Source: Candidatus Micrarchaeota archaeon (GTDB lineage Archaea; Micrarchaeota; Micrarchaeia; Norongarragalinales; Norongarragalinaceae). From it: 64,000 nt of DNA. The notes below the pieces were generated by a model. It saw only the letters and a program-made list of their open reading frames with translations. It was not told where the DNA came from and searched no databases. The DNA is taken from assembly GCA_043822385.1 (NCBI GenBank), contig JBDRBT010000014.1, positions 164-64,163 on the forward strand, read 5' to 3'. Made by a program: the position numbers and the translations under genes. This document shows, in pieces, positions 3,161 through 45,222 of this stretch; position 1 is the stretch's first letter, and each line of letters begins with the position of its first letter.

Positions 3161-5056
3161 ATGGCAAAACCACGCTCTTACCTACAAACAACCAGGTGGG
3201 TAAACGCCTTAGTAAAAGAAGGCAAACTACCCTGGATAAAGGCGCTTCCGTTAGCCACTCACCAAGAATTCAGCATTAAAAAAATAAACCCCTTAACTAC
3301 AGAAAAACTAGCGGTAAAAACAGATTCACACTTAAATGAATTCAAGGGGACACACGCAGACTATTTCAATACCATAACTACTGACGAATTCACAGCTTAC
3401 TTGATTCATGCAAAAAAACTACCTCTAGGAAAAGCACTTTATGAAGCAACCATCTCAAAAAAAATATCGAAATACTTCAAGCCAGAAGAAATAAAATCAT
3501 TCATTATAGGAAACTGGGCTAGTTGGAAAGCAAACCAGATAACTAACGATTTGTTTAAAAATAATTTGTGTAGAGACCGAGGAAATAAGGAAAAAAAGCA
3601 AGAAACAACCAAACACTTGAAGATGGAATTAATCAAAAGTATTTCAGCATATCACAAACCAATAATAAATCTTAATACGATTTGGGGTGGACACAAAGAC
3701 GGGGGCAATGCAGACCACCTAGATGAAATTGCTTTAAACAACTTGCATAAAATAACTGAAAAAATAAGGGAACACGGCATAAATGCTAACGTCAACTTGC
3801 TTTTCGCTGACTTTCATGCAGACAAAATAAACAAGAAAAACCCTGTAGAAATAAAAGAATACCACAAAGACATTCAAACTCTAGCTGCAAATAAGGGCTT
3901 TACTGTAACAAAACTAAGCGACTTCTGGCTAACACATAATCCTTACGCTAAGCAAGGGGAAAATCCTGAAGAAGCTAAAGACAGCCTAAACAAAGCAATA
4001 ACCGCAATGAAAATACTCGAAGACGAAGGAATAAGCGCTATTAAAACAAAAAAACATTACAGTGGAAGCAAACAACCGGAAGAAGCGTTCGCAGCTTACA
4101 CTACTATAAGAAATATGGAAAACAGTTTATTGGAAAAACACGCCGAACCAGGAACAATCTTTTTGTCATTCAGTAATCCAAGACAAAAAGAAACAAAGGA
4201 AAACGAACCTGAAAACACTATTCACTTCAGCCCCATCGGACACAAGGAAAACGACTTGCCGTGGTTTACTAAAGGAAAACCAATTGAGATAAAATCAAGA
4301 TTAGACGAAAAAGAAAAACGCAAACTAACTGAACTAGCTGAAGACCCTATTAAAGAAAAAGAAAAAATAGTTGATTCAAAACGAGTTGGATTCACAGACT
4401 GGCGGGTTCTAGGAACAAAAATAGGCTTGCTGTTGCTAGCGGGAACGCTTACTTTCGGCGGAAGTGCTTCAGCAATAAACCAGCACTACCAAAAACTCGT
4501 GAAACAAGAACAACAAAAACAAGAATTAATCATAGCGCAAGAAACAGCAAAAGACGCGAGAATTAAACACGAACTAGAAAAAGTCGGAATAACGCACCCG
4601 GACTGGATTAAAGCAATGAAAACAAACAAGAACGTAGTAAAAAATTATTCTTTCCTAGATCCACTAACTCCGAAAGACCTAGTTCAAATTAAAAAAGTAG
4701 GGAGCGCATTCGGCCAAGGCAGCCCAACTACAATTAACCTTGCAATGCCTTTACTAGTAATGTGGAATAACCACCTATCCGCATCCAGTGACCCCAAAAG
4801 TGCGTTAGACTGGGAAAAAACAGAAATAGACGCTGCAGCAAGAGTCTTAGCTAAGCAAGTCGGGTCAGATGGATTTATAGTAAACGATGTTTACCGCCTT
4901 GCAGAAGTCATAAAAGATAATAATAGGGATCCAGAATTCAGGAAAACCATGAACATACTTTCAGAATACGCTAAGTACGGAATATATCCCTTCGATGAAC
5001 CAGTAATTCCAGATTGGATGAAGGAAATGGAAAAACAAAAAGCAAAAAAGAAATAG
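3161..5056 (+). CDS. large orphan protein with one central TM helix
   Basis: 631-aa ORF, Lys-rich. Hydrophobic segment GTKIGLLLLAGTLTFGGSASAI near residue 425. No family recognised by eye. Confidence 0.6.
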   Translation: MAKPRSYLQTTRWVNALVKEGKLPWIKALPLATHQEFSIKKINPLTTEKLAVKTDSHLNEFKGTHADYFNTITTDEFTAYLIHAKKLPLGKALYEATISKKISKYFKPEEIKSFIIGNWASWKANQITNDLFKNNLCRDRGNKEKKQETTKHLKMELIKSISAYHKPIINLNTIWGGHKDGGNADHLDEIALNNLHKITEKIREHGINANVNLLFADFHADKINKKNPVEIKEYHKDIQTLAANKGFTVTKLSDFWLTHNPYAKQGENPEEAKDSLNKAITAMKILEDEGISAIKTKKHYSGSKQPEEAFAAYTTIRNMENSLLEKHAEPGTIFLSFSNPRQKETKENEPENTIHFSPIGHKENDLPWFTKGKPIEIKSRLDEKEKRKLTELAEDPIKEKEKIVDSKRVGFTDWRVLGTKIGLLLLAGTLTFGGSASAINQHYQKLVKQEQQKQELIIAQETAKDARIKHELEKVGITHPDWIKAMKTNKNVVKNYSFLDPLTPKDLVQIKKVGSAFGQGSPTTINLAMPLLVMWNNHLSASSDPKSALDWEKTEIDAAARVLAKQVGSDGFIVNDVYRLAEVIKDNNRDPEFRKTMNILSEYAKYGIYPFDEPVIPDWMKEMEKQKAKKK

Positions 5057-5095
5057 AACTTTCTTTGATTAATTTTTCTTTCTAAGAAAAATTAG

Positions 5096-5266
5096 TGGGG
5101 ACGCCGAGATTCGAACTCGGATCTTCAGGTATCTTCTTTGCTGCTCTTCACGAAATCAGAGCTCCAATAATCTTATCATTCTCCTTTCGGAGTCAAAATA
5201 CCTATTTTTTATTGTTTTTATTACAAAACTGGAGCCTAACATGCTGCCAGGTTATACCACATCCCC
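5096..5266 (-). tRNA. tRNA-Trp(CCA) candidate with 98-nt intron after position 37
   Basis: Read on the minus strand. The acceptor stem is GGGGATG/CGTCCCC (7 bp including one G-U) with discriminator A. The T arm is CCGAG-TTCGAAT-CTCGG. The anticodon stem is TTAGG (5' exon) paired with CCTGA (3' exon). The loop is CTCCAG|intron|A. Exons are 5266-5229 and 5130-5096, giving a 73-nt mature tRNA with no encoded CCA. The D stem is weak (GTAT/GCAT). Confidence 0.7.
5131..5228 (-). ncRNA. tRNA intron with box C/D-like architecture (C, D', C' boxes and guide to anticodon loop)
   Basis: Minus-strand elements: C-like ATGATAA (5179-5173), guide TTGGAGCT (5167-5160), D' CTGA (5159-5156), C'-like GTGAAGA (5151-5145), and a further CTGA at 5128-5125 that lies in the 3' exon. 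The guide pairs with GGCTCCAG of the 5' exon. A CTCC-GAAA-GGAG hairpin precedes the C box. Confidence 0.45.
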
Positions 5267-5330
5267 GTTATTAGAATAATATTCTGTGCAAGCAACTTAA
5301 AAATCATTCCAGCACTTACAGTAATACAGA

Positions 5331-5990
5331 ATGGCTACTTTAATTGGTGTTGACGAGGCAGGACGCGGATGCGTAATCGGGCCGTTAGTGATTTGCGCGT
5401 TTAAAATAAACGAAAAACACGAAATAGAATTAAAAAAAATGGGCGTGAAAGACTCTAAACTATTGGCACCAACAACCAGAAACAAGTTATACAAAGAATT
5501 AATCAAAAGCAAACACTGTTTGCGCATTATTCCAGCAACTGAATTAACTGAGTTAATGAACAAAAAAATTTCTTTAAACGAAATCGAGGCAATAAAAATA
5601 GCGGAGTGCCTGCAGGAACTAGACGACAACGAGACAACTGCGTTCATTGATTCTCCTGACGCGAACCCGAAAAAGTTTGCTGAAAGAATCAAACGGCTTG
5701 CGCCAAACCTCAAGATTAAGATAATTGCTGAAAACAAGGCGGATGTAAACCACTTGGTTGCGAGCGCAGCTTCAATAATAGCTAAAGAAACGCGCGAAAT
5801 GGAAGTAACAAGAATAAAAAAATTGGTTGGCGACTTTGGTTCAGGTTATACATCTGACGGGAAAACAATTGTTTTCTTGAAGAAACATTACGGTAAAAAT
5901 AAAGCGTTGAATGAATTTATTCGTGAAAAATGGAGTACTATAAAGAACTTGAAGACAACGCAAGTAAAACTAGGAAATTACTTTAAGTGA
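5331..5990 (+). CDS. rnhB: ribonuclease HII
   Basis: N-terminus MATLIGVDEAGRGCVIGPLVICAF is the classical RNase HII catalytic motif. Length is 219 aa. Confidence 0.9.
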   Translation: MATLIGVDEAGRGCVIGPLVICAFKINEKHEIELKKMGVKDSKLLAPTTRNKLYKELIKSKHCLRIIPATELTELMNKKISLNEIEAIKIAECLQELDDNETTAFIDSPDANPKKFAERIKRLAPNLKIKIIAENKADVNHLVASAASIIAKETREMEVTRIKKLVGDFGSGYTSDGKTIVFLKKHYGKNKALNEFIREKWSTIKNLKTTQVKLGNYFK

Positions 5991-44615: not shown

Positions 44616-44778
44616 AAAAATCTCCTCCCAACTATTGAAAAATCAAAAAACATTACTCACTTGGTTTTTAAATTAATGCGCTTGCAAACTCTTTTAAACG
44701 CTTTCTCGCATTAACTATTCTTACTCTTTTTTTAAGAATTCAATGAACTATTGGGATAAAACCCGGAATGGTGAGAAA

Positions 44779-45222
44779 ATGAAAGCATATATTGAAAAGG
44801 AAACGCCTAAAGACGTGCAACAAAAAGCACTAGAATTACTCGAGAAAGCAAGACAAAGCGGCGGAAGGCTTCGCAAGGGAACTAATGAAGCAACTAAAGC
44901 AATAGAAAGAAGCGAAGCACGCGTAGTAGTAATAGCAGGAGACGTAGATCCTGAAGAAATAGTAATGCACTTACCTATACTAAGCAAAGAAAAAGGAATT
45001 TCTTTTTGTTTTGTTGACACTAAAATAGAATTAGGGAAAGCTGCAGGGTTAGGTGTTGGAACTTCAGCAGTAGCTTTAGGTTCACCTGGTTCTGCTGAAA
45101 ACGAGTTGAAGGAATTAATTGAAAAACTAGGTGGACAAAAATTAATGCCTGCAGCAAAACCTGCTGTAAAAGCAATTAAACCCAAGAAAACTACTACTAA
45201 AAAGAAAAAGGAAGAAGAGTGA
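44779..45222 (+). CDS. rpl7ae: 50S ribosomal protein L7Ae with Lys-rich C-terminal extension
   Basis: LRKGTNEATKAIERSEARVVVIAGDVDPEEIVMHLP. ATG 44779 is preceded by GGTGA. Extra tail ...KPAVKAIKPKKTTTKKKKEEE. Confidence 0.9.
   Translation: MKAYIEKETPKDVQQKALELLEKARQSGGRLRKGTNEATKAIERSEARVVVIAGDVDPEEIVMHLPILSKEKGISFCFVDTKIELGKAAGLGVGTSAVALGSPGSAENELKELIEKLGGQKLMPAAKPAVKAIKPKKTTTKKKKEEE

What the first reader, a model, noticed from the sequence alone, without database searches (positions are those of the whole stretch)
5096..5266. tRNA-Trp(CCA) candidate whose 98-nt intron looks like a box C/D guide aimed at its own wobble C34
On the minus strand the exons fold into a 73-nt tRNA with anticodon loop CTCCAGA and an intron after position 37. 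The intron contains, in order, a GNRA hairpin (CTCC-GAAA-GGAG), a C-like box ATGATAA, a 13-nt spacer, CTGA (D'), a 4-nt loop, a C'-like GTGAAGA, a 16-nt spacer and a second CTGA. The spacer before D' (TTGGAGCT) pairs with GGCTCCAG of the 5' exon as six Watson-Crick pairs flanked by two G-U pairs. The nucleotide paired to the fifth position upstream of D' is C34. This is the arrangement established for the Haloferax volcanii pre-tRNA-Trp intron, which guides Cm34 and Um39. There are two differences here. The second CTGA (5128-5125) falls inside the 3' half of the anticodon stem rather than in the intron. The second guide (AAAGAAGATAC) has no complement in this tRNA, so it may be vestigial or may target another RNA.
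Basis: partly seen in the sequence, partly recalled or inferred. Interest (0 to 1): 0.6.

Follow-up and report, generated by a model that had tools for sequence, protein, structure and literature searches.

The report
Rearranged methylation guide in tRNA-Trp intron

Summary
Window 5266..5096 (minus strand) is tRNA-Trp(CCA) with a 98-nt intron at 37/38 (ARAGORN with introns; Rfam tRNA 35.3 bits).

The box assignment is wrong. The 'second D box' in the 3' exon is only the anticodon stem: CTGA sits there in 3 of 51 related genes. The second guide is not vestigial. It is TAGGTATT (5204-5197), 5' of the GNRA hairpin and followed by TTGA. It pairs with the last three intron bases plus A38-G42 and puts C39 at the fifth position, the site known from Haloferax. 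In 13 relatives this guide covaries with its target (A-U x7, G-C x6 at one pair).

The order is guide39 - D'(TTGA) - hairpin - C'(AATGATAA) - guide34 - D(CTGA) - tttc - C(GTGAAGA). That is a circular permutation of C - g39 - D' - C' - g34 - D, the order of all 26 guides in a 2008 compilation. L7Ae, fibrillarin, Nop5, EndA and RtcB are encoded, but Nop5 lacks its N-terminal domain.

It is a new variant of a known kind. Methylation itself is untested.

The parts
5096..5266 (-). pre-tRNA-Trp(CCA), 171 nt
   Evidence: ARAGORN -i; Rfam RF00005 35.3 bits
5229..5266 (-). 5' exon, nt 1-37. Holds target 1 (G30-G37, GGCTCCAG) with C34 at 5232.
5131..5228 (-). 98-nt intron at 37/38
5205..5228 (-). A/U-rich leader. 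Its first bases (tttgt) can form the outer helix h' of the splice motif with caaa(g) at 5138-5142. No box C is present here.
   Evidence: sequence. Leader length varies from 6 to over 60 nt in relatives.
5197..5204 (-). guide 39: TAGGTATT. Pairs with gat|ACCTG (last 3 intron nt plus A38-G42) as G-U, six Watson-Crick pairs, G-U. Its fifth position lies opposite C39.
   Evidence: Covariation in 13 relatives. The pairing is part of the minimum-free-energy fold.
5193..5196 (-). box D' (TTGA); its GA forms the sheared pairs of K-turn 1
   Evidence: NTGA/NCGA directly before a hairpin is conserved in relatives. AUGA and CCGA variants occur in published guides.
5181..5192 (-). hairpin CTCC-GAAA-GGAG, the capped canonical stem of K-turn 1
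   Evidence: Stem present in all 13 relatives with different sequences; 3 of 3 stem pairs show double-sided changes. The same-genus relative has CTCT/AGAG.
5173..5180 (-). box C' (AATGATAA): 3-nt bulge AAT, then G-A, then U and A facing U and U of TTGA
   Evidence: (R)ATGA invariant in relatives
5160..5172 (-). 13-nt C'-to-D spacer containing guide 34 (ATTGGAGCT). Its fifth position lies opposite C34.
   Evidence: Same core UUGGAGCU-CUGA as the Archaeoglobus and Thermococcus guides.
5156..5159 (-). box D (CTGA)
5152..5155 (-). 4-nt loop TTTC that closes the C/D pair as a K-loop
   Evidence: 3-4 nt loop in family relatives, a longer hairpin in others
5143..5151 (-). box C (GTGAAGA) plus GC. AGAGC pairs with GCUCU (guide positions 3-1 plus C and U of box D) as a 5-bp non-canonical stem.
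   Evidence: RTGAnGAG(C/T) conserved. The helix is in the minimum-free-energy fold. UGAAGA is an attested box C variant.
5131..5142 (-). tail AGCAAA, then GAAG (partner of C32-C35 in the central 4-bp splice helix, with a C34-A mismatch), then AT (3' bulge together with A38)
   Evidence: GAAG at n-5..n-2 in 21 of 51 introns, including guide-less ones. The BHB reading is by inspection.
5096..5130 (-). 3' exon, nt 38-73. Holds target 2 with C39 at 5129. The CTGA at 5128-5125 is anticodon-stem nt 40-43, not a box.
44743..45222 (+). L7Ae gene (K-turn binding protein), in the same window
   Evidence: PF01248 83.6 bits; TIGR03677 138 bits against a cut-off of 134.6

Best explanation
Window 5266..5096 (minus strand) encodes pre-tRNA-Trp(CCA). 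Its 98-nt intron is a dual box C/D methylation guide homologous to the pre-tRNA-Trp intron guide of Euryarchaeota, but circularly permuted. The order is leader - guide39 (TAGGTATT) - D' (TTGA) - GNRA hairpin - C' (AATGATAA) - guide34 (ATTGGAGCT) - D (CTGA) - tttc - C (GTGAAGAGC) - tail with the splice helix.

Both box pairs are therefore local 'D - loop - C' hairpins: one K-turn with a capped stem and one K-loop. Each folds on its own and would be bound by L7Ae. Nop5 and fibrillarin would then methylate the ribose of the nucleotide paired to the fifth guide position. That nucleotide is C34 for guide34 and C39 for guide39.

The two guide duplexes use the anticodon stem-loop and the splice junction, so they exclude the bulge-helix-bulge fold. 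That fold has the anticodon stem, CUCC/GAAG as its central helix, and the bulges AG|u and au|A. Methylation must therefore come before splicing of the substrate molecule, either in cis or in trans from another precursor or an excised intron. EndA then cuts and RtcB joins the exons. If RtcB also circularises the intron, the canonical order C - g39 - D' - C' - g34 - D is restored.

Shown here: the gene, the intron position, the motifs, both complementarities and their registers, their conservation and covariation, and the presence of the protein genes. Inferred: L7Ae binding, methylation, order of events, circularisation.
For: tRNA and intron.

Published reference set: all 26 tRNA-Trp guides in Additional file 4 of PMC2584109 read C - guide39 - D' - loop - C' - guide34 - D. 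Their guide34 cores are (U)UGGAGCU-CUGA, and the Haloferax guide39 pairs with 'gau' of the intron plus AU39CAGU. The window has the same two guides in the same order and the same registers.

Registers: guide34 gives 9 pairs with position 5 opposite C34. Guide39 gives 8 pairs with position 5 opposite C39. Each is the best register along the whole pre-tRNA.

Guide39 covariation in 13 relatives from 4 or more families: position 3 against the last intron base is A-U x7 and G-C x6 with no mismatch. Position 5 is always G-C39. 93.6% of cells are paired, against 80.4% in shuffles (0 of 500 reach it) and 33-45% when partners are slid. The covariation score is 0.454 against 0.197. Shuffling guide-target partners between species reaches the observed total once in 10,000.

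Architecture: the hairpin stem changes on both sides in 3 of 3 pairs. Every one of about 33 introns with a GGAGC guide, one degenerate case (L145) apart, has NNGA, then a loop or hairpin, then xTGA behind it, and none has the canonical open end. The C'-to-D spacer is 13 nt. The minimum-free-energy fold (z = -4.07) contains the guide39 duplex, the GNRA hairpin and the 5-bp GCUCU/AGAGC helix around the G-A loop.

Protein genes: fibrillarin and Nop5 adjacent, L7Ae in the window, EndA and RtcB.
Against: The duplexes are short (8-9 bp with two G-U each) compared with the usual 10-12 bp. Boxes C' (AUGAUAA) and D' (UUGA) depart from consensus, and no Rfam C/D model matches the intron.

The 13 guide39 sequences were selected by complementarity of at least 7 of 8 positions, so the percentage paired is partly built in. 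About 10 other two-K-turn introns (for example L006, L035, L048, L051, L053) show no in-register guide39.

Guide39 has no box C upstream of it in the linear RNA, and after circularisation the C-to-D' distance would be about 54 nt rather than 12.

This genome's Nop5 is 279 aa and aligns only with residues 122-384 of S. solfataricus Nop5. It lacks the N-terminal domain that normally holds fibrillarin. The same holds in 30 relatives, so the RNP cannot be fully classical.
Confidence: 0.75

Rival explanations
1. This is a canonical-order guide: C = ATGATAA, D' = CTGA, C' = GTGAAGA, and D = the CTGA inside the 3' exon. Only the D' guide (to C34) is functional, and the second guide (AAAGAAGATAC) is vestigial or aimed at another RNA.
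For: All four motifs exist at these places with plausible spacings of 13 and 16 nt. Box order would then look conventional.
Against: CTGA at exon nt 40-43 occurs in only 3 of 51 related genes; the rest have CTGC, CTGT, CCGC and so on, following the anticodon stem. The 16-nt 'guide' is not conserved except for GAAG+2, which is also present in guide-less short introns and is the splice-helix strand. Its complement has one non-rRNA hit in the genome, about what chance gives. The model leaves the conserved TTGA-hairpin contact and the covarying TAGGTATT unexplained. ATGATAA and the exon CTGA have no flanking stem.
Confidence: 0.04
2. The two K-turns and the antisense stretches are a folding or splicing device and not a methylation guide. 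L7Ae binding and the intron-exon pairings would hold the precursor in a non-BHB form, as a timing or quality-control step for splicing or a chaperone for an A/U-rich tRNA, without any ribose methylation.
For: Nop5 lacks the fibrillarin-binding N-terminal domain throughout the order. The duplexes are short. Guide-less short introns in sister families show that the tRNA can do without the device. In Haloferax the intron and its methylations are dispensable (Joardar 2008, as cited in PMC11408192).
Against: Both antisense elements sit at exactly the distance from an NUGA box that puts nt 34 and nt 39 at the fifth position. These are the two sites shown to be methylated in Haloferax, and a pure folding device would not need that register. 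Fibrillarin is retained next to Nop5 in a 0.77-Mb genome.
Confidence: 0.13
3. Only guide34 works in this organism. The guide39 module is a decaying remnant kept because the K-turn 1 hairpin is needed as the second L7Ae/Nop5 site.
For: Many relatives have a single guide34 module. About 10 two-K-turn introns have lost guide39 complementarity. Guide39 lacks an upstream box C in the linear RNA.
Against: In the window and its same-genus relative guide39 is intact (8 and 9 pairs). Across 13 genomes it tracks changes in the last intron base and in nt 41-42, which indicates selection on the pairing.
Confidence: 0.08

Closest known systems
Box C/D guide in the pre-tRNA-Trp intron of Euryarchaeota (Haloferax volcanii, Pyrococcus, Archaeoglobus, Methanosarcina and others; Clouet d'Orval 2001; Singh 2004; sequences in Additional file 4 of PMC2584109)
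   Same: Same host gene and intron position (37/38). Same two targets (nt 34 and nt 39) and the same fifth-position register. Same guide34 core UUGGAGCU-CUGA. Guide39 also pairs with the last three intron bases. Guide39 lies 5' of guide34. The guide duplexes and the splice fold exclude each other.
   Different: Box C is not at the 5' end. It follows box D after a 4-nt loop, so the terminal C/D stem is replaced by a K-loop and the RNA ends lie between box C and guide39 (a circular permutation). Position 39 is C, not U. The boxes are more degenerate (UUGA, AUGAUAA). The host is a DPANN archaeon, probably Micrarchaeota, whose Nop5 lacks the N-terminal domain.
Permuted C/D box sRNA24 of Nanoarchaeum equitans (Randau 2012, PMC3491384)
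   Same: A box C/D RNA whose gene order is circularly permuted. In that case only the circular RNA has the conserved box order, and circular molecules were detected. It is also a DPANN organism.
   Different: sRNA24 is a free-standing gene next to a split reverse gyrase gene, not a tRNA intron. Here both box pairs are already closed hairpins in the linear form, so circularisation may not be required. Here an established route to circles, EndA plus RtcB, comes with the intron.
K-loop C'/D' motifs of Pyrococcus sRNAs (Nolivos 2005, known from the literature) and engineered half-mer C/D RNAs used for sRNP structures (e.g. PDB 3ID5, from memory)
   Same: The unit D box - short loop - C box with a guide 5' of D. 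Compare CUGA-UUGG-GGAUGA (T. kodakarensis) and CUGA-GCGG-UGAUGA (A. fulgidus) with CUGA-UUUC-GUGAAGA here.
   Different: In known sRNAs only the internal C'/D' pair is a K-loop. Here the pair serving guide34, the terminal C/D of the published guides, is one too. Single-module relatives (L030, L043, L059, L071, L138) look like natural half-mers.
C/D-like RNA in the 66-nt intron of N. equitans elongator tRNA-Met (Randau 2012)
   Same: A second example of a tRNA intron proposed to hold a C/D guide in a DPANN archaeon.
   Different: Different tRNA. The target and box order were not analysed here.

Membership tests
Archaeal box C/D methylation guide sRNA | Two box pairs (C RUGAUGA / D CUGA and C'/D') able to form K-turns with tandem sheared G-A pairs | tested here: met
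   GUGAAGA/CUGA (6/7 and 4/4) and AUGAUAA/UUGA (6/7 and 3/4). GA...(N)AUGA geometry with a 3-nt bulge and a capped stem. The cores are invariant in relatives. Variants UGAAGA, UGAUUA and AUGA occur in published guides. L7Ae binding was not tested.
Archaeal box C/D methylation guide sRNA | Linear order 5'-C - guide - D' - C' - guide - D-3' with the ends paired in a terminal stem | tested here: not met
   The order is guide - D' - hairpin - C' - guide - D - loop - C. There is no UGA-type box in the 24-nt leader. The same holds in about 33 related introns.
Archaeal box C/D methylation guide sRNA | Antisense element directly 5' of D/D', with the target nucleotide paired to the fifth position | tested here: met
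   Guide34 gives 9 bp to G30-i1 with position 5 at C34. Guide39 gives 8 bp to i96-G42 with position 5 at C39. Each is the best register on the pre-tRNA. Both are shorter than the usual 10-12 bp.
Archaeal box C/D methylation guide sRNA | About 12-nt spacing between a C-type box and the next D-type box | tested here: inconclusive
   C' to D is 13 nt (met). Guide39 has no upstream box C in the linear RNA. Through a circular junction the distance would be about 54 nt.
Archaeal box C/D methylation guide sRNA | Core proteins L7Ae, Nop5 and fibrillarin encoded | tested here: met
   Caveat: Nop5 covers only residues 122-384 of 3ID5_A and has no N-terminal domain.
Archaeal box C/D methylation guide sRNA | Match to a curated C/D covariance model | tested here: not met
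   Rfam E-value search of 4900-5500 gives no C/D family on the intron strand. Archaeal C/D models are lineage-specific, so this is weak evidence.
Archaeal box C/D methylation guide sRNA | 2'-O-methylation at the predicted sites | not testable with these tools
Pre-tRNA-Trp intron guide (Cm34/Nm39) | Lies in the 37/38 intron of tRNA-Trp and carries guides to nt 34 and nt 39 of its own exons | tested here: met
Pre-tRNA-Trp intron guide (Cm34/Nm39) | Box order as in the 26 published sequences | tested here: not met
Archaeal BHB-spliced tRNA intron | Helix - 3-nt bulge - 4-bp helix - 3-nt bulge - helix across both splice sites; EndA and RtcB present | tested here: met
   By inspection: stem 27-31/39-43; bulge a97 u98 A38; central helix C32-C35 / g93-g96 with a C34-A mismatch; bulge A36 G37 u1; h' u2-u6 / g88-a92. 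GAAG conserved in 21 of 51. EndA, RtcB. No dedicated BHB predictor was run.
Permuted C/D sRNA matured by circularisation (N. equitans sRNA24 type) | Permuted gene order | tested here: met
Permuted C/D sRNA matured by circularisation (N. equitans sRNA24 type) | Circular RNA detected | not testable with these tools
   No transcript data

The most novel reading that the evidence does not exclude
In this DPANN lineage the tRNA-Trp guide has been rebuilt from autonomous 'guide - D - hairpin - C' units, that is, natural half-mers: one unit in some genera and two in tandem here. They would work with an L7Ae / N-terminally truncated Nop5 / fibrillarin set that cannot assemble like the classical sRNP. 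The dual guide would have the canonical C - g39 - D' - C' - g34 - D topology only after EndA and RtcB excise and circularise the intron. If so, intron circularisation would be a maturation step for a trans-acting guide, and the modular units would show how C/D guides can be gained, lost and permuted.
Probability: 0.3. Interest if true: 0.75.

Novelty: new variant of a known kind. Interest (0 to 1): 0.55.

Why it matters
Self-methylating tRNA-Trp introns are the textbook case of a cis- or trans-acting archaeal C/D guide, so far described in Euryarchaeota with one fixed box order. A conserved, covarying, circularly permuted version in DPANN archaea shows that the terminal C/D stem is dispensable and that both K-turns can be local hairpins.

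It also gives a natural test of whether a guide needs an upstream box C, the 12-nt spacing, or circularisation. It pairs this RNA with a Nop5 that lacks its fibrillarin-binding domain, which raises the question of how the methyltransferase is recruited.

Tried and rejected
- Default ARAGORN and the Rfam gathering scan found no tRNA. Only intron-aware ARAGORN and the E-value run did.
- The Rfam E-value run gave no C/D family on the intron.
GTATCTTCTTT occurs once elsewhere (C14:59265, window 59102, not rRNA), about the chance expectation, so it was rejected as a target.
- The exon CTGA was rejected as box D on conservation: 3 of 51.
- Possible 5' box C remnants 11-12 nt upstream of D' (GTGATCA in L007, GTGAGCA in L009, TTGAAAT in L019) occur in only 3 of 10 guide39 introns and not in the window. 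They were not pursued.
- The primary papers PMC92551, PMC275556 and PMC2580716 are not held. The published box order was taken from Additional file 4 of PMC2584109 instead.
- Pfam NOP5NT is uninformative, because it fails its cut-off even in the control archaea. Comparison with PDB chains and the NCBIfam profile was used instead.
- The fibrillarin-based genome-contig scan gave only relatives of about 50% identity (Burarchaeum, Micrarchaeum, Aenigmatarchaeota). Taxonomy therefore stays at 'DPANN, probably Micrarchaeota'.
- Other long tRNA introns of this genome were scanned for K-turn modules. None was convincing.

Full report
**1. The gene.** On the minus strand, 5266..5096 reads GGGGATGTGGTATAACCTGGCAGCATGTTAGGCTCCAG | 98-nt intron | ACCTGAAGATCCGAGTTCGAATCTCGGCGTCCCCA. 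Rfam's tRNA model gives 35.3 bits (gathering score 29) with a 102-nt insertion in the anticodon loop. Default ARAGORN and the Rfam gathering run both missed it. The window is contig 14 of a 765-kb, 26-contig, 82%-complete, 39% G+C genome. The closest named fibrillarin relatives are Ca. Burarchaeum and Ca. I treat it as DPANN, probably Micrarchaeota.

The guide TTGGAGCT directly 5' of CTGA pairs with G30-G37 as G-U, six Watson-Crick pairs, G-U, plus an extra A-U to the first intron base. The fifth position upstream of CTGA lies opposite C34. Along the whole pre-tRNA this is the best register for that guide. The only equal is its own palindromic GAGCTC core.

**3. What relatives show.** BLAST and pattern searches in 68 genomes of the same order and 401 of the phylum, with fetched flanks, gave 51 distinct tRNA-Trp genes.
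- About 33 introns carry a (Y)TGGAGCN guide. With one degenerate exception (L145), it is followed by NNGA, then a 3-9 nt loop or a hairpin, then (R)TGA, that is, D - loop - C. None ends in an open D box with a terminal stem.
- Seventeen genes, in other families, have 14-37 nt introns with no guide. They keep GAAG + 2 nt before A38.
- In the window's family the block is GGAGCT-CTGA-(3-4 nt)-RTGAnGAG(C/T).
- Upstream lies a second unit: NTGA or NCGA, a hairpin of 3-9 bp with unrelated sequence in each genome, then (R)ATGA. GA directly before the stem, and a 3-nt bulge followed by GA directly after it, is the K-turn consensus (established knowledge of K-turn geometry).

**4. The second guide.** In the window the 8 nt before TTGA, TAGGTATT, pair with gat|ACCTG, the last three intron bases plus A38-G42. 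The pairing is G-U, six Watson-Crick pairs, G-U, and the fifth position lies opposite C39. This is the best register on the pre-tRNA.
- Thirteen genomes from at least four families have such a guide in the same register.
- Guide position 3 against the last intron base is A-U in 7 and G-C in 6, with no mismatch.
- Position 7 against nt 41 is A-U x12 and G-C x1. Position 8 against nt 42 is C-G x10 and U-G x2. Position 5 is always G-C39.
- On a stitched, ungapped alignment, 93.6% of cells pair, against 80.4% in shuffles (0 of 500 reach it) and 33-45% for slid partners. The covariation score is 0.454 against 0.197 (0 of 500). All three hairpin pairs counted change on both sides.
- Shuffling guide-target partners between species reaches the observed total in 1 of 10,000 trials.
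- Caveat: these 13 were picked for at least 7 of 8 pairs, so the percentage paired is partly built in. About 10 other two-K-turn introns have no in-register guide39.

**5. Comparison with published guides.** Additional file 4 of Grosjean et al. 2008 (PMC2584109) lists 26 tRNA-Trp guides from Halobacteria, Methanosarcinales, Methanomicrobiales, Thermococcales, Archaeoglobus, Thermoplasmata, Methanobacteriales and Pyrobaculum.
- All read C - guide39 - D' - loop or hairpin - C' - guide34 - D - stem. [quoted passage not shown]
- The Haloferax guide39 pairs with 'gau' of the intron plus AU39CAGU.
- The window has the same guide34 core (UUGGAGCU-CUGA), the same kind of guide39 duplex and the same guide order. 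But box C follows box D (CUGA-uuuc-GUGAAGA) instead of preceding guide39.
- The 24-nt leader (ttttgtaataaaaacaataaaaaa) contains no UGA box.
- By homology I therefore name TTGA/AATGATAA as D'/C' and CTGA/GTGAAGA as D/C. The arrangement is a circular permutation in which the terminal stem is closed by a tetraloop and the ends lie between C and guide39.
- The box variants seen here (UGAAGA, UGAUnA, NUGA) all occur in the published set.

CTGA at exon nt 40-43 is present in 3 of 51 genes. The others have CTGC (19), CTGT (13), CCGC and so on, following the anticodon stem. The supposed second guide is the tail carrying GAAG+AU. Its complement has one other genomic hit, outside rRNA.

**7. Folding.**
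- The minimum-free-energy structure of the 171-nt precursor is -51.8 kcal/mol (shuffles -35.9 +/- 3.9; z = -4.07; 0 of 200 shuffles as good). It contains the guide39/target duplex, the CUCC-GAAA-GGAG hairpin, and a 5-bp helix GCUCU/AGAGC closing the 10-nt loop GAUUUCGUGA that holds the two GA dinucleotides.
- That helix means box C plus 'GC' pairs with box D's C and U and with guide positions 1-3. It is an extended non-canonical stem that must open partly when the target binds (inference).
- The alternative splice-competent fold, by inspection, has anticodon stem 27-31/39-43, 3' bulge a97-u98-A38, central helix C32-C35 with g93-g96 (C34 faces A), 5' bulge A36-G37-u1, and outer helix u2-u6 with g88-a92.
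- GAAG at that place is the commonest tetramer (21 of 51) and occurs in guide-less introns too. It therefore belongs to splicing, not to a guide.
- Both guide duplexes consume parts of this fold. As reported for Euryarchaeota (Bortolin 2003 abstract, from memory), guiding and splicing are mutually exclusive.

**8. Proteins.**
- Fibrillarin: PF01269 251 bits; NF003276 233 bits. Nop5: PF01798 160 bits. The two are adjacent on contig 18.
- L7Ae lies in this window at 44743-45222 (TIGR03677 138 bits).
- EndA is a 396-aa frame with two endonuclease-domain hits.
- RtcB is a 989-aa frame whose domain is interrupted by about 1.4 kb, which looks like an intein.
- Unexpected: Nop5 is 279 aa and aligns only to residues 122-384 of S. 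solfataricus Nop5 (3ID5_A) and to positions 126-392 of the 417-position NCBIfam profile.
- In 30 relatives the profile also matches only from about position 120, and no separate N-terminal piece is found.
- The N-terminal domain is the part that binds fibrillarin in solved sRNPs (established knowledge), so how fibrillarin is recruited here is open.

**9. Mechanism proposed.**
1. L7Ae binds the two hairpin K-motifs.
2. Nop5 (coiled-coil dimer) bridges them across the 13-nt C'-D spacer.
3. Fibrillarin methylates C34 (guide34) and C39 (guide39), in cis or on another precursor.
4. The RNA refolds to the BHB form, EndA cuts, and RtcB ligates the exons and possibly circularises the intron. Circularisation would restore the canonical order, with a C-to-D' distance of about 54 nt.

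Only the sequence-level facts are shown here. Binding, methylation and circularisation are inferred from the Haloferax and Pyrococcus systems.

**10. Novelty.**
- I found no description of a permuted tRNA-Trp intron guide in the searchable literature.
- The nearest precedent for permutation is N. equitans sRNA24, a free-standing gene for which only the circular RNA has the proper box order.
- Two earlier notes of this scan (e1-1066554, e1-5045775) report permuted or 'rotated' tRNA-Trp intron guides in other DPANN genomes. I read them only after reaching this interpretation. They are AI notes, not independent evidence.
- Verdict: a real feature, and a new variant of a known kind.

Noticed in passing
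window 5058-5093 (-), directly 3' of tRNA-Trp; about 20 further copies in the genome (e.g. C2:43254, C8:4383, C13:50537, C15:64475, C20:11256 and 11293): A conserved element: a 9-11 bp A/T-rich hairpin (AAACTTTT-loop-AAAAGTTT) followed by (G/A/C)ATCAAA(A). It occurs almost only inside predicted tRNA introns or immediately after tRNA 3' ends. Some introns (tRNA-Arg UCU, tRNA-SeC-like) hold two copies in inverted orientation. A tRNA-Trp intron of another family (L145) also carries it. Function unknown; it could be a processing signal, a terminator or a mobile element.
   Followed up: partly
G000 C18:19474-20271 (-) (L003 1426-2265); 30 relatives: Nop5 is only 279 aa and lacks the N-terminal fibrillarin-binding domain. 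It aligns to residues 122-384 of PDB 3ID5_A. The same truncation of the recognisable part is seen throughout the order. A 76-aa coiled-coil-like ORF with no family match sits between Nop5 and fibrillarin.
   Followed up: partly
G000 C2:1881-4691 (-): The RtcB ligase domain is split (profile 1-56 and 48-426) by about 1.4 kb inside one 989-aa open frame, which looks like an intein insertion.
   Followed up: no
G000 C1:27396-27872 (+): The splicing endonuclease is a 396-aa frame with two tRNA_int_endo domain hits. It is possibly the multi-unit type described for ARMAN/Micrarchaeota, which accepts relaxed BHB motifs.
   Followed up: no
related loci L030, L043, L044, L059-L061, L071, L072, L084, L138: In several genera the tRNA-Trp intron (38-70 nt) holds a single unit, guide34 - NNGA - hairpin - (R)ATGA, starting 3-12 nt after the splice site. 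These look like natural half-mer guides with one K-turn.
   Followed up: partly
related loci L111-L134 (families f12, f16, f19, f21 of the phylum): tRNA-Trp introns of only 14-37 nt without any guide, still ending in GAAG(A)A before A38. The guide has been lost or was never gained in these families.
   Followed up: partly
window 5133-5136 against 5231-5234; 21 of 51 related introns: The central 4-bp helix of the splice motif (CUCC/GAAG) carries a conserved C34-A mismatch, although GGAG would pair perfectly.
   Followed up: no
related loci L007, L009, L019: UGA-containing heptamers (GTGATCA, GTGAGCA, TTGAAAT) lie 11-12 nt upstream of box D', where canonical guides have box C. They may be remnants of an ancestral 5' box C, or chance.
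   Followed up: no
whole genome: ARAGORN with introns predicts 23 of 42 tRNA genes as intron-containing, several at non-canonical positions. Some are probably over-calls, but the intron load is high for a 0.77-Mb genome.
   Followed up: no
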